Shown piece by piece: positions 24,545 to 53,115 of a stretch of 64,000 nucleotides of DNA. The stretch is taken from positions 1-64,000 of the IMG/VR virus record IMGVR_UViG_2609459856_000007; one strand, given 5' to 3'. Every line of letters starts with the position of its first letter. Positions within the stretch are counted from its first letter, which is position 1. The notes below the pieces were generated by a model, which was not told where the DNA came from, ran no database searches, and worked only from the letters and a program-made list of their open reading frames with translations. This stretch comes from a virus. Taxonomy: Duplodnaviria; Heunggongvirae; Uroviricota; Caudoviricetes. Made by a program: the position numbers and the translations under genes.

Positions 24545-24660
24545 ATAGCCACCAGCTGCCGCAGGGAAATTTTCAGAAACGGCGAGGAACGCATTCATGA
24601 GCCGAAGGGAAACGACCATGAAATTTTCTGGAAACGGCGGGGGGCGCCTTTATGTAGAAA
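24545..24660. repeat. second cluster of GGGAAA/GAAACGG repeats, homologous to 20515-20700
   Basis: CCGCAGGGAAA...TTTTCAGAAACGG shared with the first cluster; GGGCCATCCAG also present in both. Confidence 0.55.
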
Positions 24661-25284
24661 ACTGAGCGGGAGAAACCCGGAATCGCGCCAGAAATTGCGT
24701 AGCGGCGCTGGGGTAGCGCTGGTGGGGTTTCAGCCCCTGGGCCATCCAGATAGCTTTCGCTATGTGATTATGTGAATCCGTGGGTAAATCACTGTAAGCG
24801 CGTACACGTTGCCCAACGTGGCAATCATATGCGAGCGGATACAAAACAACACAAAGAGCCGATCCGCGCCGACAAATAAACGCGGATCACATAGCAAGAC
24901 TAAAAGCCAATGATTAACTATACTCTATAGCGCAATATAACGCGTTTTAAGCGCGTTAATGTGTTAAGTAATGGGTATATACTGACAAGGATATAAAAGC
25001 GCGTCTATGGCGTTATTTTGGTGCTTATTTTTATGTTGTTGGAGTGAGTTAAAGACAATAAAAAACGCGCCAATGATGGTGCGTTATGGTGGGAGTATTG
25101 GAAACGAAAAAAGCGCCCATGGGGGGCGCTCGATTTTATTTGTGTAAACTAATTTTGAATCCCATTTCTACAAACGCTTTTAACATTAAAAATATATCAG
25201 CGTCGTTCACGTCTGCTTTTTTTCGCTCCTGGTCGTTCAATAAGTCAATTTTGCGCGTTGTTTCATTTATAAACTCGACTGCGC

Positions 25285-25311
25285 GCCCAGCGATCCCAGC
25301 GATCCCAGCGA
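25285..25311. repeat. perfect tandem repeat (CCCAGCGAT)x3
   Basis: Three contiguous 9-bp units. Confidence 0.8.
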
Positions 25312-25416
25312 TGCGATTAACATAATATTCATTATGGACGTTAACGCCAGCGATAAGAACAAACATGATTAAGCTCCTTAAAACTAGCTCCCATAGTGGG
25401 CGCTATATCCATCTAA

Positions 25417-26067
25417 TTACGCTTTGAAAGCATCAGCCAGATAGTTATAAAAATCATTTTTAACGAAGCGATATTGCTGTGATCCGTTTTTCGCTGCACC
25501 CATTCCTTTGATTTTTTCGACCAGTCCCAGACGTTCGCAAAGATTGATAAGCTGATTTGCTTGAGTGTATCCAGCGTCTAATTTTATTTCGTTGGCTTTT
25601 TTCGCTTCATTCATTAAATCGAAAACAGCGCCATTAGTGAACGTGTCGATCTCGTCGTTAATCATATCGATTAACGCGAATACACGAGATCCGGACATAT
25701 CAGCGACGGAATAAACGCATTTACCAGATTTAATTGATTTAACCAGATAAACCAGTTTTTCCAGAGAATAACTATTTGTCATAGCTTCGCGGAAAAACAC
25801 TTCTGGCGCTTGTTTGCTTGCTTTAATCGCGTAGTAAAAGACACCAGCTAATTTCTCATCATTAACAGCGTTTAAAACGTTGTTGGTGAAGTATGCTAGT
25901 TTGGTAGACGCTGCAAGCATGTTGGCTTTATCCGCTTTTGTGTGCGTACCATTCTGATAATGATTGTTATAAGTCTGAGTAGCGTTGTTGGCTGCAACTT
26001 GTAACTCATTAGCGATAACCACAGCAGCGTCGACGATGGTTTTTTTAGAAATGGTAACGTTAGACAT
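25417..26067 (-). CDS. hypothetical protein (216 aa from ATG 26067)
   Basis: Track ORF 25417-26202; internal ATG at 26067 has an AAGGA ribosome-binding site. Confidence 0.5.
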   Translation of the reverse strand: MSNVTISKKTIVDAAVVIANELQVAANNATQTYNNHYQNGTHTKADKANMLAASTKLAYFTNNVLNAVNDEKLAGVFYYAIKASKQAPEVFFREAMTNSYSLEKLVYLVKSIKSGKCVYSVADMSGSRVFALIDMINDEIDTFTNGAVFDLMNEAKKANEIKLDAGYTQANQLINLCERLGLVEKIKGMGAAKNGSQQYRFVKNDFYNYLADAFKA

Positions 26068-26381
26068 GATGTTAATCCTTAATAAGAGTAAAAATAAAAT
26101 TCTTGTATCGTTAGCGTGTTCGCTTTCGATGTGAGTAATTATCGATATGCAGAAATTAAAATCAAGAGTTTTTTTACGCGGGAACGAAAAATTTTTATTC
26201 AATAAAAATCAGAGTCTTAGAAATAAAACGCGTTTTCTCGAAGGTGTTGCCTAAATAAATTCCCTATTCGGTCAATCACCCTTATATATTTAAAGTGGAA
26301 TCGGGGTTAGGGAAAATAAATATAACGGGAAGTGACACATAAAATAATAACCGGACTTAGCCGGTTATCACCCTTATAGAT

Positions 26382-26906
26382 TTAAAACGGTAAAATCCGT
26401 TCGACCCAATCGAAGAGAACTATCGTTCGTCCGCGCTCGCCAACTCTCATTGCGACCTGACAGGCATCAACGCCTAACGAACACCCCTCAATTTCACGGC
26501 CATCCGCCATGTAGACCCTTATAGACTTTTGCGCCTCATGAGCTTGACGACAAATTTTGAAGAAATCGCGGCGTGATGGCCGATTGTCCACATAGTCAGG
26601 GTGTACAGTGAGCCTACCTGTAAACATCTTGTCCACTTCGACAGGTGTAATTGTTTCTATGGTGCTAACTCGCTCCAATGGAAGACGAACACGATGTTCT
26701 TTACTTCCTATAACGGGAGAAAGATCTAGCTTATTGCGTGCGGTAAGCAGACCAATAACGTAAAGACAAAACGTCTGACCATCATCGATCGTGACCCTTA
26801 CAGGTATATTCCTTGCCCGTAGGAACTGCAAACTAAACTCCACGTTAGAGTAGTCGCGGGGCCAGACCTCTGCTGGGATGCCGTATGTAATGTCTGTGAT
26901 CGTCAT
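26382..26906 (-). CDS. hypothetical protein (174 aa)
   Basis: ORF; start overlaps the upstream gene's stop (ATGA at 26906). Confidence 0.5.
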   Translation of the reverse strand: MTITDITYGIPAEVWPRDYSNVEFSLQFLRARNIPVRVTIDDGQTFCLYVIGLLTARNKLDLSPVIGSKEHRVRLPLERVSTIETITPVEVDKMFTGRLTVHPDYVDNRPSRRDFFKICRQAHEAQKSIRVYMADGREIEGCSLGVDACQVAMRVGERGRTIVLFDWVERILPF

Positions 26907-27496
26907 TAGTCTACCTTAAGTGGCGTGTCGAGAAGCCCAAACTTAAACTGCTTGCTACCTGCCACGAGGAAGGGGGCTTCGATGTAAATGGTTTTGTTGT
27001 CGATATCTGATTTTGCGGTCTTTTTGATGTCTTTTAGAAGCCTAATTGTTGCTGCGTTGTCCAGAACAAGTACTTTGCCGGTCGCATCATTGCCGATTTT
27101 GCCGTATGTCGTGAACGATTCATTACTGCCAACGCGGATATGAATCGGGCAACCGCTCTTGGCGATCTCATCACAGTACATAGTTCCATCAATCACATTT
27201 AGTAGACCGTAGGTTGGAACAAGAGCCTTGCCAGAGTTGGTGCTTGTTCCTTCTTTGACAGCTGTACCCATGATTTGAAGGCGCATATGTTCTGATTCAC
27301 CGGAAATCAGTGTTTCTTCCGCGTTATCGGAATACCTGAACCATACAGGTTGAACTGTTCCTCTGGCCTCGTATTTTACATTGTCTAGGGTAGTGAACTT
27401 GCTGTACGTTTTTTGCATGTCAGCAACCATATCTGACACTGCATTGGCAGAGAATGATAGAATATAGGTGGTTACTAAGATGGCTAAACGAGTCAT
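26906..27496 (-). CDS. predicted secreted/periplasmic protein (196 aa)
   Basis: N-terminal signal-peptide-like segment MTRLAILVTTYILSFSANA. Confidence 0.5.
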   Translation of the reverse strand: MTRLAILVTTYILSFSANAVSDMVADMQKTYSKFTTLDNVKYEARGTVQPVWFRYSDNAEETLISGESEHMRLQIMGTAVKEGTSTNSGKALVPTYGLLNVIDGTMYCDEIAKSGCPIHIRVGSNESFTTYGKIGNDATGKVLVLDNAATIRLLKDIKKTAKSDIDNKTIYIEAPFLVAGSKQFKFGLLDTPLKVD

Positions 27497-27793
27497 TCTG
27501 ACCTCAAATTAACGATATGCTATTTCCAACAGAAGATGCTGCTTATAAACGCCTCAAGATGAAATCTGAATAATTTGTCTTTGAAAAACTTTCTCGCCAT
27601 GAGTGATTTTACGCTCTAGCGAATTAAGAATTTCGTTAATGGAAATATTCATCCACCACCTCTGGCTCAAATTCCTCGGTTGTGAAGCCTACAAATATTC
27701 GTCAACCGATCAAGAATTTTTTTTCAGCCGGAGGCGTGCGAAAGTGTGATATAAATCACATGCTGACATCTACAGACGCCAGCATGTTGATGA

Positions 27794-28333
27794 TTATTTG
27801 TCCAGCACTTTGTACTTGTTCGTAATCAAACGCTCACCCTTTCTGGTAACTGTAAAACCAAACGGCGCTTTGCTGTTTTTACGTAACACGCTTTCAGCGA
27901 GCGCTTCATCGGTAGGTTGTATAGTTGAATTGTCTATCCAGTCGATGAGGGTAAGAAAGTTTAAAAGTTTCATGCTCGTGACGCCCATCTTACAGGCTAT
28001 GTCACGGACGGTACGAATCTGCCTGCATTTTGTTTCATGTGCTGCGATAGGTGTCTTTGAATTGTTTGGTGTCAGTAACGTATCCAGTGTATTAAAGAAC
28101 CCCCTTGCGGATTCAGACTTAATAAGACCTGAGTCGCTCATATCACACGCGATACGGTACAGAATATTGCTGTTGTTCATGAAGGGATAGTTCTCAACGA
28201 ATCTGACGAATGCTTGTGCATTTTTCTCTCCGCATTTGTAATCCAGCGGATTATCTACGCGCCAGAAAAATGCACTGTTGTTTTTTGCGTCAAAGATATC
28301 AACAAATGGTAGTTCAGCTAAATAGTTCATCAT
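27794..28333 (-). CDS. hypothetical protein (179 aa)
   Basis: ORF in the minus-strand operon downstream of the helicase. Confidence 0.45.
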   Translation of the reverse strand: MMNYLAELPFVDIFDAKNNSAFFWRVDNPLDYKCGEKNAQAFVRFVENYPFMNNSNILYRIACDMSDSGLIKSESARGFFNTLDTLLTPNNSKTPIAAHETKCRQIRTVRDIACKMGVTSMKLLNFLTLIDWIDNSTIQPTDEALAESVLRKNSKAPFGFTVTRKGERLITNKYKVLDK

Positions 28334-28395
28334 GTGCTCCTTTGTAACTTGACGAGCACATGATGAACTACGAAATAAGGGGAAAAAGTGGAAGA

Positions 28396-28674
28396 TTACG
28401 GCAGCCGTTTGAGAATATCGGCCAGATCTTCTTTGGTCATACCCGAGTTTTCGTAAATCTTCATGACCTTTTCACGAGCCTTTGCAGTAGTCTCTAATGA
28501 CGTAGCTATCTTATCAAAATCACCCATCGTCATATTGGACAGCACCAGATTGATGATGTCTGCCTTTGACAGTTTTATGCTGCGTTCACGCAGTCGATTC
28601 TGAAAGGTCTCTAGTTTATCGTTTGCTTTTTCGGTTAACTGAACCTGGCAGTGTATAGCGCGTTTCTCGCTCAT
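28396..28674 (-). CDS. small hypothetical protein (92 aa)
   Basis: ORF immediately downstream of the helicase (2-nt gap). Confidence 0.45.
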   Translation of the reverse strand: MSEKRAIHCQVQLTEKANDKLETFQNRLRERSIKLSKADIINLVLSNMTMGDFDKIATSLETTAKAREKVMKIYENSGMTKEDLADILKRLP

Positions 28675-28676
28675 GC

Positions 28677-30236
28677 TTACTCTCTATTTAAAACAGTGAA
28701 ATCGAATGTGCTGCCAACCGGCAAGACCCCCTCGGCAAACCCAGGCGTCGTGTCGATAATGTGTTTCCGCTCATATGAATGCGACATGAGGTATTTGTTG
28801 CTCACGTCGATGAAGTCGGTAATAAAGCACACGTTAGCCTGATTCTTTTTGGCTCGAAGACCGCGACCCACACGTTGACGCATCTCCACTTCGGCTTTGC
28901 CGCCACCACCCAGAATCACCGCGCCTACGCTTGGAACGTCGACACCAACATCCAGAATGGTTGAACCAATGAGAACATCTATCTTGCCTGCCGCCAGACT
29001 ATTAAGTTTTGCTTGTCGGGTAGTCTGGTTTGATTCTCCGTAGATGAAATCGACCTTGAGGCCACTCTCTTTCATCATTTCCATCAAGATCTGACCATGA
29101 CGCTTCAGACGAACCAATGTCATACAGTTCAGACCGTGACTCTTGTACATTAGCGCTTCACGCACAATAGCTTCGTTGCGGCCCAGATTATAGACGATGC
29201 CTAACTGATAGGCTTTCTGGTAAGCCGTGCTCATTCCAACCCGAAAATTCAGGTGTTTTGAAGCAAGTTCGGCTCTAATCCGCGCCTCATCTGGAGTGTA
29301 CGCGATTTTATGATATAAAAAGTATGGTTTCGCTAAAATACCTCTGTCGATCAAATATTTCTCCGTTACTTTTATCTCGATGCGACCCGCAACGGCCATG
29401 AGACGCATATTTGCTTCAGTCGAGTCCTTCATGAACGGCGTTGCTGTCAGCGCCAGACGGTAGTCGGCATTGATGCACAACCGGGCGATGTCGTAGAAGT
29501 TAGAACCAGATGATTCGTGTGCCTCTTCCAGAATCAGCAGAGAAACGCTGGACAGGAAGCGTTTAACCAGTTCCCGGCGCTTCAGGTGGTACTGTTTTTT
29601 CTCCGGTGATGCGTCGCGCGGTGGCTCTTCGAGAAAACTGGCCAGGGTCTGCACCGTGGCAACGTTGATATGGCGCGAGACCTGGAACTCACCCGATCCA
29701 ATCACCCCAACTCTCTGACCTTTCAGCCACGGCTCGCCATTCTCCGCGCGGTAGTCGATGGATTTCTGGAAGTTCTCTGCCATCTGGAACATCAGAACCG
29801 ATCGCGTGGTTAAAAACAGCGTCATACGACCAATGCGAGCAGCAGCCTTACACGCTACGTTCGATTTACCGCCACCCGTCGCAATCTGGGCAATCATCAT
29901 CCCTTCGCGCACCAGTGTTTCCACTGTCTGATCCTGATACGCGTAGTCCGGGTTATACGGGAATGGGTTAACCACCGGATTCGGCTTACCCAGCGCGGGA
30001 GCTTTTTCCTTGCGAACATGCACGCATTTGATGCCAGCTTTCAGAAGATTGGTCGCAACTGGCTTCGCAAACCCAGCCGGGAACGCGTTTTTACTCCAGT
30101 TGAACATCGTGCTGGTCCCTTTCCAGTCACCAGCCTCCACTTCATAGCTCAACATCTCCTGAACAAGCCGTTTCACGTTGTCATCAGCGCCAGAAATCAG
30201 CGCATTGACTGCATTTGATACAATCCGAACAGTCAT
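28677..30236 (-). CDS. SF2 DEAD/DEAH-box family helicase
   Basis: Motifs GGGKS (Walker A), LEEAHE (DEAH-like), TATP, QRVGRGLR. Confidence 0.8.
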   Translation of the reverse strand: MTVRIVSNAVNALISGADDNVKRLVQEMLSYEVEAGDWKGTSTMFNWSKNAFPAGFAKPVATNLLKAGIKCVHVRKEKAPALGKPNPVVNPFPYNPDYAYQDQTVETLVREGMMIAQIATGGGKSNVACKAAARIGRMTLFLTTRSVLMFQMAENFQKSIDYRAENGEPWLKGQRVGVIGSGEFQVSRHINVATVQTLASFLEEPPRDASPEKKQYHLKRRELVKRFLSSVSLLILEEAHESSGSNFYDIARLCINADYRLALTATPFMKDSTEANMRLMAVAGRIEIKVTEKYLIDRGILAKPYFLYHKIAYTPDEARIRAELASKHLNFRVGMSTAYQKAYQLGIVYNLGRNEAIVREALMYKSHGLNCMTLVRLKRHGQILMEMMKESGLKVDFIYGESNQTTRQAKLNSLAAGKIDVLIGSTILDVGVDVPSVGAVILGGGGKAEVEMRQRVGRGLRAKKNQANVCFITDFIDVSNKYLMSHSYERKHIIDTTPGFAEGVLPVGSTFDFTVLNRE

Positions 30237-30300: not shown

Positions 30301-30999
30301 ATGTATTGTATCAAAAATATGGATGTGAAAATTACGATTCTACAGGTGGAAGTCGCGAACCTGCGTCCGAACCCCTGGAATACCAACTCCGTTGGGGCGC
30401 AAAACTTCGAAAAACTGAAAGGTTCCATCGAAAAGTTGGGCTTTTTTAAGCCAATTCTGGCGCGAGAGCTGGACGGCGGCATTTTTGAGATTCTCGGTGG
30501 CGAACATCGCTGGCGTGCCGCGATGGAGCAGGGCATTTCAACGGTTCCCGTCATCTCCGTGGGCAAAATTAACGACCTGGTGGCCAAACAGATGTCCCTC
30601 GTCGACAACGAGCGCTACGGCGAAGACGATCAGGTCGCTTTGCAGCGCTTAATCGAAGAAATCCAGTCTGAAATCGACTACCGGTTGTCCGATATCGCCC
30701 CGTATGACGACGAAATGGCGGCAACACTCGCCAAAGCGTCCGTTATCGATCTTGAAGCGCTGGAAGCGCTCTCCCGTGGCGATGACGAGCCGGTCGATGA
30801 GGACAAACGCGAGAAAACCGAGCGAGTCGGCGCTGAACACCAGACGATGCGCTTCAAGGTGACGTTTGATGCGTCAGATCGGGTCGCCGACACCATCAAA
30901 ACCATCATCAAAGAGCAGGGAATCAATACCGGTAACGAAATGGAGAACGCCGGGGAAGCCCTGGTGTGGCTGGTCGACTACTACAAGGAGCGTATGTAA
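30301..30999 (+). CDS. ParB-like nuclease (ParB/Srx N-terminal) domain protein with acidic C-terminal region
   Basis: ParB-box-like LGGEHRWRAA; 232 aa. Confidence 0.65.
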   Translation: MYCIKNMDVKITILQVEVANLRPNPWNTNSVGAQNFEKLKGSIEKLGFFKPILARELDGGIFEILGGEHRWRAAMEQGISTVPVISVGKINDLVAKQMSLVDNERYGEDDQVALQRLIEEIQSEIDYRLSDIAPYDDEMAATLAKASVIDLEALEALSRGDDEPVDEDKREKTERVGAEHQTMRFKVTFDASDRVADTIKTIIKEQGINTGNEMENAGEALVWLVDYYKERM

Positions 31000-31667
31000 T
31001 GACCAAAAACTTTGAAATCGTCTATCGAAACCCGGCAGAACTCATCCCGTATGAGATGAACGCCAAAAAACATGACGAACAGCAGATCCGCGATCTGGCG
31101 GCCGCCATCAAAAAGCGCGGTTTTGACCAGCCGATCACGGTCGACAAGCACGACGTCATCATTACTGGCCACGGTCGTCGCGAGGCGGCTCTTCTGGCTG
31201 GTCTGGAGCGTGTGCCGGTCATTGTTCGCGACGATCTGAGCGAAGAAGAAGTGAAGGCTAAGCGTCTGGAAGACAACCGCCTGGCCAGTATTGACTACGA
31301 CGCCATCAAATTGCAGCAGGAACTGGAATCCCTGGTGCTGGGCGACGTCGAGGTCTTCGGTTTTGAAGAGCGCGAGCTGAACGTGCTTGTCGGCAGCATG
31401 ACCGAAGAGATGGAAACCGGCTCTCTGGTGCTCGATCTGGGCGAAGAGACGGAGCGCCAGAAGGAAGAGCACACCGAGATCAGTCGCGAAGTGGCCTCTG
31501 AAGAAGTCCGCGTCATCGACGTATTGGGCTTTAAAACGCTCCCTGCTGGCTCTGCCATTGTGGTTGGGGATTTGCTTGCCCACATGGAAGAAATCACGGG
31601 AGAGAGCGGGGTAGACGCTTTCGTGGCGTATGCGGAGAAAGTTTCTTCTGGTGAGCTGGCCGCATGA
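30999..31667 (+). CDS. ParB-like domain protein, paralogous to the preceding gene
   Basis: ITGHGRREAA motif; ATG at 30999 with AAGGAG ribosome-binding site overlapping the upstream stop. Confidence 0.65.
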   Translation: MTKNFEIVYRNPAELIPYEMNAKKHDEQQIRDLAAAIKKRGFDQPITVDKHDVIITGHGRREAALLAGLERVPVIVRDDLSEEEVKAKRLEDNRLASIDYDAIKLQQELESLVLGDVEVFGFEERELNVLVGSMTEEMETGSLVLDLGEETERQKEEHTEISREVASEEVRVIDVLGFKTLPAGSAIVVGDLLAHMEEITGESGVDAFVAYAEKVSSGELAA

Positions 31668-32302
31668 GCAAATACACCATCAACGTATCGTTTCAGACCC
31701 GCGTGAACAAAACCACGCGCACGCTGGAGATTGCCGAATCGTTCGGTCTTGGCCTGGACGAAAAAGAGTGGACGCTTTACGACAATCTGGAGCTGGAAGT
31801 GAAGCAGGGCGATGTGGTGTACATCACCGGCCAATCCGGTTCCGGTAAATCCGTTGTGCTGCGCGAGCTGCAACGCCAGATGAAGGATGAAGGGCTTTCT
31901 GTAGCCTCCATCGATGACTTTGCCTTCGACAATGAGGTTAACGTCATTGACCAGCTGGGCAAAACCACCAGCGAAGCGCTGGGGCTGCTGTCTATGGCCG
32001 GATTGAATGACGCCTATCTCTTTGTGCGTAAGCCATCCGAGATGTCTGACGGCCAGAAATACCGTCTCAAGATCGCCAAGCTGATCGAGTCCGGCGCGAA
32101 AGTCTGGGCTGCCGACGAATTTGGCGCTGTTCTCGACCGTGTAACCGCCCAGGTTGTGGCGTCGAACCTCCAGCGTGCCGCCCGTAAGGTTGGTGCGACG
32201 GTAATGGTGGCGACGACCCACGAAGACCTGAAGAACGCGCTGCGCCCGGATATGCAGATCACCAAGCACTACAAAGAACGCGTGAAGGTGGAATATGCCT
32301 GA
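31664..32302 (+). CDS. compact ABC-type ATPase (nucleotide-binding domain only)
   Basis: Walker A GQSGSGKS, signature-like SDGQKYR, Walker B VWAADEF, H-loop TTHED; 212 aa. Confidence 0.65.
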   Translation: MSKYTINVSFQTRVNKTTRTLEIAESFGLGLDEKEWTLYDNLELEVKQGDVVYITGQSGSGKSVVLRELQRQMKDEGLSVASIDDFAFDNEVNVIDQLGKTTSEALGLLSMAGLNDAYLFVRKPSEMSDGQKYRLKIAKLIESGAKVWAADEFGAVLDRVTAQVVASNLQRAARKVGATVMVATTHEDLKNALRPDMQITKHYKERVKVEYA

Positions 32303-32549
32303 TTTGAAGATCGTAGAGCTGAAGCCATCGAAAGAGGCTGACAACAACAACGTTGAAGTCATCCGCCTGCTGGAAGAAGCACTCCAGTACGCCAGAGAAG
32401 GCAAAAGCCAGAGCCTGGCACTGCTGATGATCAACAACGACGGCAGTGTGCTGGATTGCTGGCATAACGGTGGGCGTCCATACGTCATGGTTGGGGCGAT
32501 GGAATCGCTTCGCCTGGACTTCATCAATGCCAATATCGAGCGTAGGTGA
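32295..32549 (+). CDS. small hypothetical protein (84 aa)
   Basis: Overlapping starts/stops with both flanking genes. Confidence 0.45.
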   Translation: MPDLKIVELKPSKEADNNNVEVIRLLEEALQYAREGKSQSLALLMINNDGSVLDCWHNGGRPYVMVGAMESLRLDFINANIERR

Positions 32550-33472
32550 TCGACATGACAGGCATCATCATCAAACGCTACCGCCCGGAAGAGTTCCCGC
32601 GTCATCTGGACTTTCTGGAGCGTATGACCGTTACCAAAGGCACGGTTGAAGACTGGCACGCGCTGAAGTCGCTGCACTACAAGACGGATGGTAAGCCGTT
32701 TGCGCCAACGTATTATCGCTGCGAACTGGACGACCGGCTGGTGGGCGTCGTGGTTATGGCTTACCCGAAACTGCTGCTGGCGCCTCGCCATCGCATGTTT
32801 CCTAAGCTGAAGCCAACCACCAATACCACCGTGGCCAACCAGTATTGGGGGCGGTACGTGAACAACAACTTTGCGGTGATCAGCCGTTCCGTTGTGGACA
32901 CTCAGTACCGCGGTGTCGGCGTCTCCTATCGAATGATTAACCTGGTTAGCAGGATGCACGACCGGCCAATCATCGAGATCCAGTCGTCGATGAGCAAATA
33001 CAACCCGTTCGCCATGAAAGCAGGGTTCCAGTTCATCCGTCCGGAGCGTCCGAAGAGCTATGAGAGTGCGTTGCGTGTCTTCCAGCGTCATTTCCGTTCC
33101 GACCCTGGCGACAACGAAGCGATCGTCAAAGAGCTGTTTGCCATGAGTGAGTCTCGCCGTCGTCGTGCGCTGCGTGATCTGGTCGCTGACTACCACAAGA
33201 ACAGTTCCCTGGCCAAAGCCGGGCGTAATCGTGGCACGACGATTCAGGACATTGCCGACAGCCTGGTGGACGAGGCCAGCATCGTGAAGCTGCTCAAGGA
33301 CATTCACAACCTGAGCTTCACGTCTCCGCTGTATGGCGTGTACCGAAACCCGGACTTTGGTCGTCAGCTGCCGGACACGCTGCCACTGCTGGCATTCGAC
33401 AAACAGCCTTTGAATAACCCTCTTGAAATTGCATTATCCGAAGAAGCCCCCGCCGATCGCAGACCGTGTTAA
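32546..33472 (+). CDS. GNAT-fold acetyltransferase-like N-terminal domain protein with uncharacterised C-terminal domain
   Basis: GNAT motif-A/B-like QYRGVGVSYRM and NPFAMKAGFQFI; 308 aa. Confidence 0.5.
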   Translation: MIDMTGIIIKRYRPEEFPRHLDFLERMTVTKGTVEDWHALKSLHYKTDGKPFAPTYYRCELDDRLVGVVVMAYPKLLLAPRHRMFPKLKPTTNTTVANQYWGRYVNNNFAVISRSVVDTQYRGVGVSYRMINLVSRMHDRPIIEIQSSMSKYNPFAMKAGFQFIRPERPKSYESALRVFQRHFRSDPGDNEAIVKELFAMSESRRRRALRDLVADYHKNSSLAKAGRNRGTTIQDIADSLVDEASIVKLLKDIHNLSFTSPLYGVYRNPDFGRQLPDTLPLLAFDKQPLNNPLEIALSEEAPADRRPC

Positions 33473-33695
33473 CGCAGTGAACCGCATGTTGATGAGTGCC
33501 TCGGGCGAAACCCGGTTGTACATCGATCCGAAGTGCAAACACCTCATCGACTCGCTGGAGAAGGTGATCTACAAGCCAGGCTCACGCGATATGGATAAGA
33601 CTGGCGGCATCGAACACAGTGCGGATGCGTTAGGTTATCCGGTTCATCGTAGGTATCCGGTGAAAAATCGTGTTATTCTTGGTGGATCTAGATAG
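33414..33695 (+). pseudogene. terminase large subunit, C-terminal ~70-aa remnant
   Basis: RLYIDPKCKHLIDSLEKVIY...DKTGGIEHSADALGY is typical of a TerL nuclease-domain C-terminus; only about 93 codons are open upstream-to-stop in this frame. Confidence 0.55.
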
Positions 33696-33728
33696 GTAAG
33701 TACTTACCTAATAGGAAAAGAAAATCAA

Positions 33729-35303
33729 ATGGAATTGACTGACAAGCAAATCAAAGACCTTGTGGCACGACGCCACCCAGAATATGAGAAGAAAAAAGAA
33801 CATTGGGACTTCCTCGCCAGCACCTACGCTGGCGGGCGTGCCTGGTTCAACGACAATATCTTCCGTTACTTCAAAGAGGGCGATCAGGAGTTCAAAGAGC
33901 GCCTGGAACGCGCTTATCGCTTCAACCATACGCGCGAAGTGGTAAACCTCATCAACAAATACCTCTTCAAAGAGGTCATTCACCGCAACACTGATGAAGC
34001 ACCGGAGCAGATCCGCAATTTCTGGAAGCGAGCCACGCGCCAGAACGCCTCCATCGATGCGTTTATGGCGGCTATCGATCTGCAATCATCCATTTATGGC
34101 CGTATCTGGGTTGTCGTGGATAGCACGATGAACGTCGATGTTGAGTCTGTTGCAGACGAGAAGAAAAATGATGCGCGTGCCTACGCTTACTGGATTTCGC
34201 CGCAGCAGCTGCTTGATGTTGCCTGGGATGAAGACGGCAATATGTTGTGGGCGCTGATTGTTGAAATCGCGCGCGACGACGAAGATCCGTTCACTTCAAC
34301 CGGGCAGGAATACCAGCGTTACCGTCTGTGGACGCAAAACGAGTGGTATCTGTTCCGTGAAGAAGTGAAGAAGGGTTCCGGAAATAGCGGTCGCCGTCAG
34401 GCCAAAGTCGTTCTGGAGGATAGCGGCCAGCATAATCTGGGCGTGGTGCCGGTGTTCCCGGTGGATTGCATTGGTGAAAGCGAGTCTCCGTATTTTAGCC
34501 CGTCGTTGATTGACGATATTGCCTATCTTGATCGCGCCGTGGCCAACTACCTGTCGAACCTTGACGCGATTATTCAGGATCAGACATTCAGCCAGTTAGC
34601 GATTCCGGTTCAGTCCCTGCTGCCGGGCGATGAAAACCACACCAAAGTGCTCGAAATGGGGACAAAACGTGTCTTCACCTTCGATTCTGAGAGCGGTAAT
34701 CAGCCATTCTATCTGTCTCCAGACCCGAAACAGGCTCAGATGATCATCACCACGATTAAGACGGTGATTAATGAGATCTACCATTCCGTTGGTGTGGCTG
34801 GTGAGCGAACCAAGCAGGATAACGCGCAGGGTATCGACAACTCTTCGGGGGCAGCGAAGATGTACGACTTCCAACGTATTAACAGTCTGTTGGTGACAAA
34901 AGCAGAGCGCCTCGAAAGGGCAGAACGCCAAATGATGGAGTTGGCTGCGAAATGGATGGGCATCGAATTGGATGAAGACCACTCTCTGATCGCTTACCCG
35001 GAGAGTTTCGATATTCGTGGTCTGACTGACGAATTTGCCGTCGCTGAGAAATTGTCGCTGTTACAGGCGCCTGATTCTGTACGTCGTCATCAGATGGAAA
35101 TGCTCATAGAAAAGATCTTCCCGAATATTTCCGAAGCGATGCAAAAGGAATTTAAAAAAGATCTCTTGAAATTTCCTCTAAAAAATGCTCCTGGCGCCCT
35201 TGAAAATAAGTCAGTACTTACTTATGATCGAGATACAGTCCAAGAAAGCGGACAAGATCAACCCCGAGGGAATGGGGACTCATCTACTCAAGAGACCGAG
35301 TGA
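33729..35303 (+). CDS. phage portal protein
   Basis: 524-aa ORF immediately after the terminase remnant and before scaffold/capsid genes. Confidence 0.65.
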   Translation: MELTDKQIKDLVARRHPEYEKKKEHWDFLASTYAGGRAWFNDNIFRYFKEGDQEFKERLERAYRFNHTREVVNLINKYLFKEVIHRNTDEAPEQIRNFWKRATRQNASIDAFMAAIDLQSSIYGRIWVVVDSTMNVDVESVADEKKNDARAYAYWISPQQLLDVAWDEDGNMLWALIVEIARDDEDPFTSTGQEYQRYRLWTQNEWYLFREEVKKGSGNSGRRQAKVVLEDSGQHNLGVVPVFPVDCIGESESPYFSPSLIDDIAYLDRAVANYLSNLDAIIQDQTFSQLAIPVQSLLPGDENHTKVLEMGTKRVFTFDSESGNQPFYLSPDPKQAQMIITTIKTVINEIYHSVGVAGERTKQDNAQGIDNSSGAAKMYDFQRINSLLVTKAERLERAERQMMELAAKWMGIELDEDHSLIAYPESFDIRGLTDEFAVAEKLSLLQAPDSVRRHQMEMLIEKIFPNISEAMQKEFKKDLLKFPLKNAPGALENKSVLTYDRDTVQESGQDQPRGNGDSSTQETE

Positions 35304-53040: not shown

Positions 53041-53115
53041 GATGGTGTAGCTCAGTGGTAGAGCGGTTGACTGTTAATCAACTGGTCGGTGGTTCGAGTC
53101 CACCCACCATCGCCA
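53041..53115 (+). tRNA. tRNA-Asn (anticodon GTT)
   Basis: Cloverleaf folded by hand: acceptor GATGGTG/CACCATC, D-arm GCTC/GAGC, anticodon stem GTTGA/TCAAC with loop CTGTTAA, T-arm GGTGG-TTCGAGT-CCACC, discriminator G plus CCA. Confidence 0.85.

What the first reader, a model, noticed from the sequence alone, without database searches (positions are those of the whole stretch)
25417..30236. Uncharacterised six-gene minus-strand operon led by an SF2 helicase
The DEAH-type helicase is followed on the same strand by five genes with no recognisable motifs, one of which has a signal peptide (26906-27496), with very short intergenic gaps and an ATGA overlap. The region is AT-rich compared with its flanks. 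A helicase paired with a secreted protein and unknowns could be a replication module or an unrecognised defence or exclusion operon.
Basis: inference. Interest (0 to 1): 0.5.

Follow-up and report, generated by a model that had tools for sequence, protein, structure and literature searches.

The report
Phage-plasmid backbone genes, not one operon
The "operon" is an ordinary, widely sequenced stretch of an SSU5/pHCM2/pMT1-type phage-plasmid: a conserved phage DNA helicase with a small partner gene, a swap-in slot for exported proteins, a flagellin-repressor-family RNA-binding protein, and a separate conserved gene of unknown function.

Summary
The six ORFs exist, but they are not an uncharacterised novelty or a demonstrable single operon. 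The window is an E. coli SSU5-like phage-plasmid, 99% identical to known plasmids and 93% to Salmonella phage SSU5.

- **Gaps:** only two junctions are tight (2-nt gap, 1-nt TAATG overlap). The others are 62, 297 and 314 nt. Strong hairpins follow p92, p179, the FljA-like gene and p76.
- **Helicase:** a UvsW/XPB-like SF2 phage DNA helicase under very strong purifying selection. Its deepest conserved neighbours are the divergently transcribed ParB–ParB–ATPase–portal genes, down to 39% identity in alphaproteobacterial relatives.
- **FljA-like gene:** one "unknown" is a clear FljA-family member (PF03614, 6e-69). I model it as a tandem Sm/Hfq-like fold.
- **Conserved order:** helicase → p92 → variable slot → FljA-like → p216 holds in 70–72 of 72 related loci.
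- **Variable slot:** it carries lipoproteins or secreted proteins. The signal-peptide gene is rare cargo and p179 is a shell gene.
- **Defence:** nothing matches a known defence system or a replicative helicase plus loader.

Mildly interesting: the FljA-like gene is persistent and selected even in phage-plasmids of non-flagellated Klebsiella. Overall this is ordinary.

The parts
28677..30236 (-). SF2 DNA helicase, 519 aa, UvsW/XPB-like; persistent backbone gene
   Evidence: Pfam DEAD, ResIII and Helicase_C. phrog_16 'DNA helicase' 1.6e-93. PDB sequence hits XPBII 2e-12 and T4 UvsW 3e-7. Phage homologues are annotated DNA, recombination or UvsW helicase. Median dN/dS 0.024.
28396..28674 (-). 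p92, a small conserved partner gene starting 2 nt after the helicase stop; function unknown
   Evidence: phrog_1466, unknown function, 2e-50. Found after the helicase in 70 of 72 loci. dN/dS 0.074. No PDB or Pfam match. The beta-alpha-alpha (ribbon-helix-helix-like) N-terminus is only my reading of the sequence.
28323..28370 (-). 17-bp perfect inverted repeat (RNA hairpin, -29 kcal/mol) covering the SD and ATG of p179; it marks the end of the helicase-p92 unit
   Evidence: z -7.4. Kept through a compensatory C-G to G-C change in the 42%-identity p179 class. A hairpin or classic terminator follows p92 in all variants examined.
27794..28333 (-). p179, a shell (accessory) gene of unknown function
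   Evidence: phrog_13473. Present in 183 plasmid records and 19 of 72 loci, and absent from SSU5, pMT1 and pHCM2. No PDB or Pfam match.
27758..27787 (-). Terminator-like hairpin just after p179
   Evidence: 13-pair stem; -21.6 kcal/mol, z -5.2.
26906..27496 (-). sec196, a Sec-signal-peptide protein; rare cargo of the variable slot, translationally coupled to the FljA-like gene
   Evidence: Signal peptide read directly and conserved in the alignment. Only 65 plasmid records and 15 protein clusters carry it. In 10 of 72 loci. No PDB, Pfam or PADLOC match.
26382..26906 (-). FljA-family protein (174 aa), modelled as a tandem Sm/Hfq-like fold; probable RNA-binding translational repressor
26345..26372 (-). 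Hairpin followed by a U-rich tract just after the FljA-like stop codon (terminator-like)
   Evidence: Read. Fold -15.7 kcal/mol, z -3.0, followed by UUAUUAUUUUAU. The consensus terminator scan did not list it.
26138..26165 (-). Sigma-70-like promoter TTGATT-16-GATAAT upstream of p216
   Evidence: It is a consensus match only; the total number of promoter-like sites in the region is not above chance.
25417..26067 (-). p216, a persistent lineage-specific all-helical protein of unknown function; probably its own transcription unit with p76
   Evidence: phrog_1513 3e-143. Present in 72 of 72 loci. dN/dS 0.067. AF2 pLDDT 91.5. No informative structural relative.
25136..25366 (-). p76, a small same-strand gene 50 nt after p216 that the finding omitted
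   Evidence: phrog_1585 1.5e-36. Present in 35 of 72 loci.
25111..25131 (-). Canonical intrinsic terminator (GC stem followed by six U residues) ending the minus-strand array
30301..32302 (+). Divergently transcribed ParB-like, ParB-like and ABC-type ATPase genes; the helicase's deepest conserved neighbours
   Evidence: Pfam ParB_N twice and ABC_tran. PHROGs. Adjacent and divergent to the helicase in every relative down to 39% identity.

Best explanation
The region is conserved backbone plus one accessory hot spot of an SSU5/pHCM2/pMT1-type phage-plasmid. It is best read as three or four expression units, not one functional operon.

1. **Helicase and p92.** The helicase is a UvsW/XPB-like SF2 enzyme with the 92-aa gene immediately after it. 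I infer that it is an ATP-driven DNA translocase and branch-remodelling enzyme. It would serve phage replication and recombination and clear branched DNA before packaging. It is transcribed from a 64-nt divergent control region shared with the ParB-ParB-ATPase-portal genes, which are its real long-term partners.
2. **Variable slot.** After a strong hairpin comes a hypervariable slot. Here it holds p179, whose SD and start codon are buried in that hairpin, and a secreted 196-aa protein. In relatives the slot holds lipoproteins or other exported proteins. These look like moron-type lysogenic-conversion or surface-exclusion cargo (inferred).
3. **FljA-family protein.** The slot's last gene is translationally coupled to it. 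I model this protein as two Sm/Hfq-like domains. By homology it should bind an mRNA leader and block translation. In this E. coli host the likeliest target is fliC (inferred, about 40%). An element-internal RNA target is nearly as likely.
4. **p216 and p76.** These form a separate conserved unit of unknown function.
For: **Identity of the element**
- 99% DNA identity over 100% of the region to E. coli plasmids of 106-120 kb, and 93% to phage SSU5.
- The same gene order is annotated in SSU5, pMT1, pHCM2 and Klebsiella and E. coli plasmids.

**Synteny**
- Of 72 loci with enough flank, 72 have the FljA-like gene and p216 downstream of the helicase in order. 70 also have p92.
- p179 is in 19 and sec196 in 10.
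- The slot ranges from 91 to 2932 nt. It usually ends in a lipobox or signal-peptide gene 0-7 nt before, or overlapping, the FljA-like start.

**Helicase**
- Family, PDB and phage matches.
- It lies divergent to ParB1-ParB2-ABC212-p308 in Rhizobium phage RHEph10 and in Paracoccus, Roseospira, Faunimonas, Photobacterium, Xenorhabdus and Morganella contigs.
- In those relatives p92, the FljA-like gene and p216 fade out.

**Transcript structure**
- Four hairpins, z -3 to -7.4.
- A hairpin after p92 is a general feature. In the p179 class it is kept by a compensatory change.

**FljA-like protein**
- Family, motifs, model and fold matches.
- Canonical FljA sits directly after a flagellin gene.
- FljA-type repressors block fliC mRNA translation (PMC2652032).

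**Selection**
- All four core genes are under purifying selection, with median dN/dS between 0.02 and 0.11.
Against: - No expression data. Promoters and terminators are consensus or folding predictions, and the promoter-like count is not above chance.
- The hairpins after p92 and p179 lack good U-tracts, so read-through from the helicase promoter into p179, and even into sec196 and the FljA-like gene, is possible.
- The helicase reaches no equivalog cutoff: XPB scores 47.7 bits against a cutoff of 610. Identity to UvsW is only about 23%. Its substrate is therefore inferred.
- The FljA-like gene is not next to a flagellin gene. It persists under purifying selection in phage-plasmids of non-flagellated Klebsiella, which argues against fliC as the only target.
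- No function could be assigned to p92, p179, sec196 or p216.
Confidence: 0.75

Rival explanations
1. The six genes form one anti-phage defence or superinfection-exclusion system. The helicase would be its motor and the secreted protein its sensor or effector.
For: - Weak PADLOC matches of the helicase core to PbeA (1.6e-22), type IV restriction enzymes, DruE and DpdF.
- The distal part is AT-rich.
- Exported proteins and lipoproteins in temperate phages are often exclusion factors (general knowledge).
Against: - The PADLOC hits cover only generic helicase domains. None of the five partners hits any defence model.
- The helicase is a persistent, slowly evolving backbone gene (dN/dS 0.024). It holds a fixed position next to the packaging genes as far out as alphaproteobacterial phage-plasmids. 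That is unlike mobile defence islands.
- The putative partners vary independently of it: sec196 is in 10 of 72 loci and p179 in 19 of 72.
- Hairpins and 300-nt gaps split the array.
Confidence: 0.05
2. The helicase and p92 are a replicative helicase and its loader, forming the core of the element's replisome.
For: - The helicase sits at the head of a gene array in a replicon that must replicate.
- The small gene is tightly coupled to it with a 2-nt gap.
Against: - The protein is a monomer-type SF2 enzyme (DEAD/ResIII plus Helicase_C). It is not a DnaB- or RecA-fold hexameric helicase. There is no DnaB, DnaC, gp59 or P-type loader match for any gene.
- The closest characterised relatives are the repair and recombination helicases XPB, UvsW, UvrB and RecG.
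Confidence: 0.03
3. The FljA-like protein has nothing to do with host flagellin here. It would be a phage-plasmid-internal post-transcriptional regulator, for example of the coupled exported-protein gene, of p216, or of lysis-lysogeny or copy-number genes. Chromosomal FljA would then be a later recruit from this phage-plasmid family.
For: - Present in 72 of 72 loci, and in 341 Klebsiella and 62 Yersinia plasmid records. Those hosts are non-flagellated or non-motile (general knowledge).
- dN/dS is 0.10-0.19 within the Klebsiella-type clade for pairs with dS at least 0.04.
- Divergence within phage-plasmids (26-38% identity) is as deep as divergence from chromosomal FljA (37%).
- In 80% of 200 neighbour-joining bootstraps, chromosomal FljA groups with the main phage-plasmid clade rather than outside all phage-plasmid clades.
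- It is never next to a flagellin gene in these elements.
Against: - No candidate internal target was found. Nothing in the 64-kb window resembles the fliC 5' leader.
- The tree root is assumed, so nesting is not proven.
- Most hosts of the family (E. coli, Salmonella, Enterobacter, Citrobacter, Cronobacter) are flagellated.
- The residues invariant in chromosomal FljA are kept, so fliC repression remains plausible.
Confidence: 0.35
4. The helicase belongs functionally to the divergent ParB-ParB-ABC-ATPase module. That would make a DNA-processing, condensation or packaging-initiation complex rather than a general replication and recombination function.
For: - Invariant divergent adjacency with a short shared intergenic region (64 nt here, 87 nt in RHEph10) across relatives from 39% to 100% identity.
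- An 11-nt inverted repeat flanks the control region.
- The module runs straight into a TerL-like fragment and the portal gene.
Against: - Conserved gene order in phages often reflects ancestry and timing, not physical interaction.
- Helicase homologues in Herelleviridae and T4-like phages sit in replication and recombination modules and are annotated accordingly.
- There is no direct evidence of interaction.
Confidence: 0.2

Closest known systems
Backbone of SSU5-supergroup phage-plasmids (Salmonella phage SSU5 genes SSU5_120-124; S. Typhi pHCM2; Y. pestis pMT1; pKpn and pSLy3 groups; Pfeifer et al. 2021, PMC7969092)
   Same: - Same genes in the same order next to the ParB-ParB-ATPase-portal genes.
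- 93% DNA identity to SSU5 over the shared parts and 99% to several E. coli plasmids.
   Different: - This variant carries p179 and the 196-aa secreted protein in the variable slot. SSU5, pMT1 and pHCM2 have a 140-aa lipoprotein there.
- Its FljA-like protein is only about 71% identical to theirs.
T4 UvsW and archaeal/bacterial XPB (Rad25) SF2 helicases; 'DNA/recombination helicase' of SPO1-, K- and A511-like and Vi01-like phages (phrog_16)
   Same: - Two RecA-like domains carrying motifs I, II, III and VI.
- Similar size to UvsW: 519 aa against a 510-residue PDB chain.
- Significant sequence matches.
   Different: - Only about 23% identical to UvsW homologues and 33-37% to Herelleviridae helicases, and only over the C-terminal half for the latter.
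- Far below NCBIfam equivalog cutoffs.
- The first ~95 residues are unassigned.
- Activity is untested.
FljA, repressor of phase-1 flagellin (Pfam PF03614) of Salmonella fljBA, E. coli flagellin islands and pBSSB1
   Same: - Full-length family match (231.6 bits against a cutoff of 24).
- Shared invariant motifs TYG..AEV.PR.Y, RDFF.IC and DWV.RI.
- It is the second gene after a gene for an exported surface protein.
   Different: - 36-38% identity to chromosomal FljA.
- The upstream gene is not a flagellin but a Sec-secreted protein or lipoprotein.
- It is a persistent backbone gene of a phage-plasmid lineage, including elements of non-flagellated hosts.
Hfq / Sm-like (LSm) RNA-binding fold, and WYL domains
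   Different: - There are two Sm-like units in one chain, not a homohexamer subunit.
- No significant sequence similarity (E 0.7-1.5).
- Oligomeric state and RNA-binding face are unknown.
Moron / lysogenic-conversion slots of temperate phages that carry lipoproteins or exclusion proteins (for example T5 Llp and the Cor proteins; from my own knowledge)
   Same: A short AT-rich, hypervariable segment between conserved backbone genes. It carries small lipoproteins and secreted proteins of several unrelated families, bounded by hairpins.
   Different: - No sequence relationship to any characterised exclusion protein was found.
- No phenotype is known.

Membership tests
SSU5-supergroup phage-plasmid backbone | High DNA identity and collinear gene order with SSU5, pHCM2 and pMT1-type elements of about 100-120 kb | tested here: met
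   93% identity to SSU5 and 99% to E. coli plasmids over 100% of the region. Same gene order, and in 70-72 of 72 loci.
SF2 helicase (DEAD/DEAH-ResIII plus Helicase_C) | N-terminal RecA-like domain with motif I (GxGKS/T) and motif II (DExH) | tested here: met
   Pfam DEAD 7e-15 and ResIII 2.1e-14, both above gathering cutoffs. The sequence reads ATGGGKS and LILEEAHE.
SF2 helicase (DEAD/DEAH-ResIII plus Helicase_C) | C-terminal RecA-like domain with motif VI (QRxGRxxR) | tested here: met
   Helicase_C 4.6e-13, 49.8 bits against a cutoff of 23.5. The sequence reads QRVGRGLR.
T4 UvsW / XPB equivalogs | Score above the curated equivalog cutoff, or clear orthology to the characterised enzyme | tested here: not met
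   NF045503 XPB scores 47.7 bits against a cutoff of 610. UvsW 2oca matches at 2.7e-7 over the C-terminal domain only. Identity to annotated UvsW genes is about 23%. So it is UvsW/XPB-like, not an orthologue.
T4 UvsW / XPB equivalogs | Branch-migration, fork-regression or R-loop-unwinding activity | not testable with these tools
   Needs purified protein on model DNA substrates.
Replicative helicase plus loader (DnaB/DnaC, gp41/gp59, P-type) | Hexameric DnaB-family or RecA-fold SF4 helicase domain with a recognisable loader next to it | tested here: not met
   No DnaB or loader family hit for any of the six proteins in Pfam, PHROGs or NCBIfam.
Known anti-phage defence systems (PADLOC-DB) | Matches to all core components of a system, not only a generic helicase domain | tested here: not met
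   Only the helicase hits, and only over its helicase core (PbeA 1.6e-22 and weaker). The five partners have zero hits.
FljA / Flag1_repress (PF03614) | Full-length match above the Pfam gathering score | tested here: met
   231.6 bits against a cutoff of 24; residues 5-171 match profile positions 1-170 of 170.
FljA / Flag1_repress (PF03614) | Conserved core residues shared with flagellin-linked chromosomal FljA | tested here: met
   32 invariant columns across phage-plasmid and chromosomal members. The chromosomal member P0094 was confirmed to lie 92 nt after a flagellin gene.
FljA / Flag1_repress (PF03614) | Encoded immediately downstream of, and co-transcribed with, an alternative flagellin gene | tested here: not met
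   Upstream gene here is a 196-aa Sec-signal protein. Relatives have lipoproteins or nothing there. No tabulated upstream product in the 85 loci resembles a flagellin; 20 loci lacking a Sec-signal or lipoprotein gene upstream show only alternative-start spurious ORFs.
FljA / Flag1_repress (PF03614) | Binds the fliC mRNA leader and blocks its translation | not testable with these tools
   The function is known for the family (PMC2652032). Here it is supported only by homology and by the Sm/Hfq-like model.
Sm/Hfq-like fold | N-terminal helix followed by a five-stranded, strongly bent beta-sheet | tested here: met
   [not shown]
Sm/Hfq-like fold | Ring-shaped oligomer with RNA-binding faces | not testable with these tools
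   Only the monomer was modelled.
Single operon (one promoter, one terminator) | Short gaps throughout, no internal terminators, and co-variation of all members across genomes | tested here: not met
   Gaps are 2, 62, 297, -1 and 314 nt. There are four strong hairpins. p179 and sec196 vary independently of the core genes. Actual transcripts were not measured.

The most novel reading that the evidence does not exclude
The FljA family is known only as the flagellar phase-variation repressor. It may instead be primarily a tandem Sm/Hfq-like RNA-binding regulator native to SSU5-type phage-plasmids.

- It is a persistent backbone gene there, always placed as the last gene of a cassette slot for exported proteins.
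- It stays under purifying selection even in elements of non-flagellated Klebsiella.
- So it may control an RNA target other than, or in addition to, fliC. The Salmonella and E. coli fljA genes would then be domesticated offshoots.
- In flagellated hosts, carrying the phage-plasmid would silence flagellin. That would affect motility, H-antigen expression, flagellin sensing by the immune system and sensitivity to flagellotropic phages.
Probability: 0.3. Interest if true: 0.55.

Novelty: already known. Interest (0 to 1): 0.25.

Why it matters
For the genome scan, this finding can be closed. It is a well-sampled phage-plasmid backbone, not a new defence or replication system.

Two residual points could matter.

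1. SSU5-type phage-plasmids are common in clinical E. coli, Klebsiella, Salmonella and Y. pestis. All of them carry an FljA-family protein that I model as a tandem Hfq-like RNA binder. If it silences flagellin or another host or element mRNA, carriage would change motility, H-antigen typing, innate immune recognition and susceptibility to flagellotropic phages.
2. The helicase has an invariant divergent pairing with a ParB-ParB-ATPase set from enterobacteria to alphaproteobacteria. That marks an uncharacterised conserved DNA-handling module at the replication-packaging interface of this phage lineage.

Tried and rejected
1. **Defence system.** PADLOC gave only generic helicase-core hits and nothing for the partners. 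Rejected.
2. **Replicative helicase plus loader.** No DnaB or loader families were found. Rejected.
3. **fliC-leader mimic.** I looked for one in the element as an internal FljA target. blastn-short of the K-12 fliC 5' UTR and start against the 64-kb window gave only chance 9-12-mers.
4. **p216.**
   - The PDB profile search found nothing.
   - Foldseek against BFVD found nothing at E below 0.06. A few non-significant partial matches were to small wHTH/MarR-like proteins.
   - The afdb50 library was unavailable.
5. **p92 as a ribbon-helix-helix protein.** Neither PDB nor Pfam profile searches supported it. I keep it only as a reading of the sequence.
6. **p179 and sec196.** No PDB or Pfam relatives. 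The sec196 family has only 15 clusters in 5.8 billion proteins.
7. **Other slot cargo in relatives.** All orphans, apart from one HNH-domain protein and a sub-threshold BiPBP_C hit.
8. **Literature.** No paper in the held library links SSU5, pHCM2 or pMT1 with fljA, or FljA with an Sm-like fold. One preprint on SSU5-like heteroresistance was not held.
9. **Rfam.** No RNA family lies in the region.
10. **Technical problems.** One dN/dS script timed out and was re-run.

Full report
**What the window is.** The 4.8-kb region matches 790 plasmid records. It is 98-99% identical over its full length to several non-mobilizable E. coli plasmids of 106-120 kb, and 93% identical to Salmonella phage SSU5 over 63% of its length. 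The annotated records of SSU5, Y. pestis pMT1, S. Typhi pHCM2, and a K. pneumoniae and an E. coli plasmid show the same layout:
- two ParB-like genes and an ABC-type ATPase on one strand;
- divergently, a 519-aa DEAD/DEAH helicase, a ~92-aa protein, a small variable gene, a ~175-aa 'transcriptional regulator', a gap, a 216-aa protein and a small protein.

The window is therefore a member of the SSU5 supergroup of phage-plasmids described by Pfeifer et al. 2021 (PMC7969092).

**Checking the observation.**
- The six minus-strand ORFs are real, and all have plausible ribosome-binding sites.
- The helicase call is right: Pfam DEAD 7e-15, ResIII 2e-14, Helicase_C 5e-13, with motifs ATGGGKS, LEEAHE, TATP and QRVGRGLR.
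- The signal peptide at 26906-27496 is right: MTRLAILVTTYILSFSANA|VSD, conserved in homologues.
- The last gene most likely starts at 26067 (216 aa), not at the TTG at 26202.
- Gaps along the array are 2, 62, 297, -1 (TAATG) and 314 nt, so 'very short gaps' holds for only two junctions.
- A seventh same-strand gene (p76) lies 50 nt beyond p216, before the only canonical terminator.
- AT-richness is real only for the distal 3.26 kb (GC 0.420, lowest 1% of same-size windows). The helicase is 0.507 and the whole region is unremarkable at the 22nd percentile.
- 'No recognisable motifs' is wrong for 26382-26906, a full-length Pfam Flag1_repress (FljA) match at 6.4e-69.

**One operon or several units?** RNA folding of the minus-strand transcript shows four hairpins that are much more stable than shuffled controls:

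| Position | Stability | Notes |
|---|---|---|
| After p92 | -29 kcal/mol, z -7.4 | 17-bp perfect stem |
| After p179 | -21.6 kcal/mol, z -5.2 | |
| After the FljA-like stop | z -3.0 | followed by a U-rich tract |
| After p76 | z -3.2 | followed by six U residues |

- The first hairpin buries the Shine-Dalgarno sequence and ATG of p179. It is kept in the 42%-identity p179 class through a compensatory C-G to G-C change.
- Every variant I examined has a hairpin or a classic terminator right after p92, whether or not p179 follows.
- A TTGATT-16-GATAAT promoter-like site precedes p216. This is weak evidence, because promoter-like sites in the region are not above chance.
- I infer these units: [helicase-p92], [p179, probably read through and translationally gated], [sec196-FljA-like, translationally coupled] and [p216-p76]. 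This is an inference, since no transcript data exist.

**Comparative genomics.** I compared 85 related loci with helicase identity of 71-100%. Of these, 72 have at least 5.5 kb downstream of the helicase.
- All 72 have the FljA-like gene and then p216, in that order. 70 also have a detectable p92.
- p179 is in 19 and sec196 in 10.
- The segment between p92 and the FljA-like gene ranges from 91 to 2932 nt.
- It usually ends in a gene for an exported protein, 0-7 nt before or overlapping the FljA-like start. Most loci have a 140-aa lipoprotein with a lipobox. The window's class has the 196/197-aa Sec-signal protein.
- Some loci have a 118/119-aa signal-peptide protein 50-55 nt before the start. 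Others have 145-aa or 259-266-aa lipoproteins on the opposite strand, or an empty slot.
- Across PLSDB, the FljA-like gene occurs in 831 plasmids, p179 in 183 and sec196 in 65.
- sec196 has only 15 clusters among 5.8 billion proteins.
- Median dN/dS is 0.024 for the helicase, 0.067 for p216, 0.074 for p92 and 0.107 for the FljA-like gene.

So there are four persistent, selected backbone genes with a hypervariable accessory hot spot between them.

**The helicase and its real partners.**
- PHROGs places it in phrog_16 'DNA helicase' (1.6e-93).
- The best PDB sequence matches are XPBII (2e-12), Rad25, UvrB, T4 UvsW (3e-7) and RecG. NCBIfam equivalog cutoffs are far from met.
- tblastn against phages finds 1128 records. 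Rhizobium phage-plasmid RHEph10 matches at 39% over the full length.
- Herelleviridae 'DNA/recombination helicase' genes match at 33-37% over the C-terminal half. T4-like and Vi01-like UvsW genes match at about 23% over 75% of the query.
- I then examined relatives at 39-59% helicase identity. These are RHEph10 and ~100-110-kb contigs of Xenorhabdus, Morganella, Photobacterium, Faunimonas, Roseospira, Paracoccus and Qipengyuania.
- In all of them the helicase lies divergently next to homologues of ParB1, ParB2, the ABC-type ATPase and p308. Most also keep p90 and the portal gene.
- p92 and p216 are detectable only as far as Xenorhabdus and Morganella (~33%). The FljA-like gene appears at 26% in one Xenorhabdus contig. 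None of the three is found in the alphaproteobacterial relatives.

The helicase therefore does not 'lead' a functionally linked set of downstream genes. Its oldest linkage is with the opposite-strand packaging-side module. From what is established about UvsW-type enzymes (my own knowledge), I infer an ATP-driven branch-remodelling role. It would serve replication and recombination and prepare DNA for packaging. It is not a DnaB-type replicative helicase, and no partner resembles a loader. PADLOC hits (PbeA 1.6e-22 and weaker) cover only the generic helicase core, and no partner hits any defence model.

**The FljA-like protein.**
- Homologues are almost all on ~105-112-kb contigs, meaning phage-plasmids.
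- Chromosomal 'phase 1 flagellin repressor' proteins are 36-38% identical. They share 32 invariant positions, including TYG..AEV.PR.Y, RDFF.IC and DWV.RI.
- I confirmed that the Atlantibacter member lies 92 nt downstream of a flagellin gene, inside a prophage-like island.
- AlphaFold2 with a 23-sequence alignment gives pLDDT 83 and pTM 0.81. The model has two tandem units of one helix plus five strands.
- A sequence-profile search of the PDB also returned only Hfq-like proteins, though not significantly.
- This fits the published post-transcriptional action of FljA-type repressors on fliC mRNA (PMC2652032). I found no paper in the held library that describes this fold for FljA.

**What the FljA-like protein may target.**
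- The gene is never next to a flagellin gene in these elements.
- It is present in 341 Klebsiella and 62 Yersinia plasmid records.
- It shows dN/dS of 0.10-0.19 within the Klebsiella-type clade for pairs with dS at least 0.04.
- Its divergence within phage-plasmids (26-38%) equals its distance to chromosomal FljA.
- In neighbour-joining bootstraps, chromosomal FljA groups with the main phage-plasmid clade in 160 of 200 replicates. The root is assumed, so nesting is only suggestive.
- No fliC-leader-like sequence occurs in the window.

I therefore commit to 'RNA-binding translational repressor'. I put about 40% on host fliC as the target in this E. coli element, and about 35% on an element-internal or additional target.

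**The remaining genes.**
- p216 is persistent and lineage-restricted: 113 clusters, all from Enterobacterales-type elements, with identity of at least ~48% among the near-full-length hits.
- It is confidently modelled as all-helical, with a long helical hairpin and a small C-terminal beta-hairpin region.
- It has no informative structural or sequence relative.
- p92, p179 and sec196 have no detectable relatives of known function.
- Exported proteins and lipoproteins in a hypervariable AT-rich slot fit moron-type lysogenic-conversion or surface-exclusion cargo. That is an analogy only and was not tested.

**Verdict.** The helicase is replication/recombination-type, and an exclusion role for the slot cargo is possible. 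The region is an already known, heavily sequenced backbone segment of SSU5-type phage-plasmids. It is not a new system, not a replisome core, and not demonstrably a single operon. Interest is low (0.25). The most novel reading not excluded is that the FljA family is natively a tandem Sm-like RNA regulator of this phage-plasmid lineage, with targets beyond flagellin.

Noticed in passing
[not shown]
   Followed up: yes
window 28323-28339 / 28354-28370: A 17-bp perfect inverted repeat (-29 kcal/mol) sequesters the SD and start codon of p179. It is conserved with a compensatory change in distant p179 variants. The same core, CATGTGCTC..GAGCACATG, follows p92 even in loci that lack p179. It could be a translational gate, a transcript-end structure or a palindromic operator.
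   Followed up: partly
window 30301-35303 (+) and loci L087, L093-L102: The divergent module ParB-like, ParB-like, ABC-type ATPase, p84, p308, p90 and portal is conserved next to the helicase, from enterobacterial to alphaproteobacterial phage-plasmid-like contigs at 39% helicase identity. Its function is uncharacterised.
   Followed up: partly
window 33423-33695 (+): The 90-aa ORF matches only the C-terminal third (positions 143-225 of 228) of a 'terminase large subunit' PHROG. It overlaps the end of the 308-aa ORF by 50 nt. No ordinary full-length TerL lies between the ATPase and the portal gene, so the terminase may be split or otherwise unusual.
   Followed up: no
window 26275-26294 and 26367-26386: A 20-nt direct repeat, ATCACCCTTATA(T/G)ATTTAAA, occurs twice 92 nt apart. 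One copy overlaps the FljA-like stop codon and the other lies past the hairpin. It could be a module-exchange boundary or a protein-binding site.
   Followed up: no
window 30214-30224 and 30305-30315: A perfect 11-nt inverted repeat, TTTGATACAAT / ATTGTATCAAA, brackets the 64-nt divergent control region between the helicase and ParB1. Each arm lies in the first codons of one gene. It is a candidate shared operator.
   Followed up: no
window 25281-25312 (within p76): Three tandem 9-nt units, GCGATCCCAGCGAT-like, encode IAGIAGIAG in the 76-aa protein.
   Followed up: no
window 53041-53112 (+): A tRNA gene. It is the only Rfam match at gathering threshold in the whole 64-kb window.
   Followed up: no
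plasmid hits H13-H15 and H27 (NZ_CP079773, NZ_CP079776, NZ_CP141793, NZ_AP027538): In near-identical plasmids the same region is interrupted by an IS5-like ISKpn26 insertion. The match spans about 6.76 kb instead of 4.82 kb.
   Followed up: no
loci L096, L091 and L098: Contigs binned as Bacillota, 'Candidatus Fimivivens' and Saccharibacteria MAGs carry this module at 100%, 83% and 43% helicase identity. They are probably mis-binned phage-plasmid contigs.
   Followed up: no
locus L062 8614-9747 (+); loci L025, L023 and L062 (opposite-strand lipoproteins): In relatives the variable slot also carries a 377-aa HNH-domain protein and 259-266-aa lipoproteins. The lipoproteins share an 'L.DP.SA.F...C..VN..N..G.YTG' motif with the 118-aa signal-peptide protein. 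This suggests a second exported-protein family cycling through the slot.
   Followed up: no
window 24562-24599 and 24617-24654: A 38-nt direct repeat (71% identical, 55-nt spacing) lies in the intergenic region left of the array.
   Followed up: no
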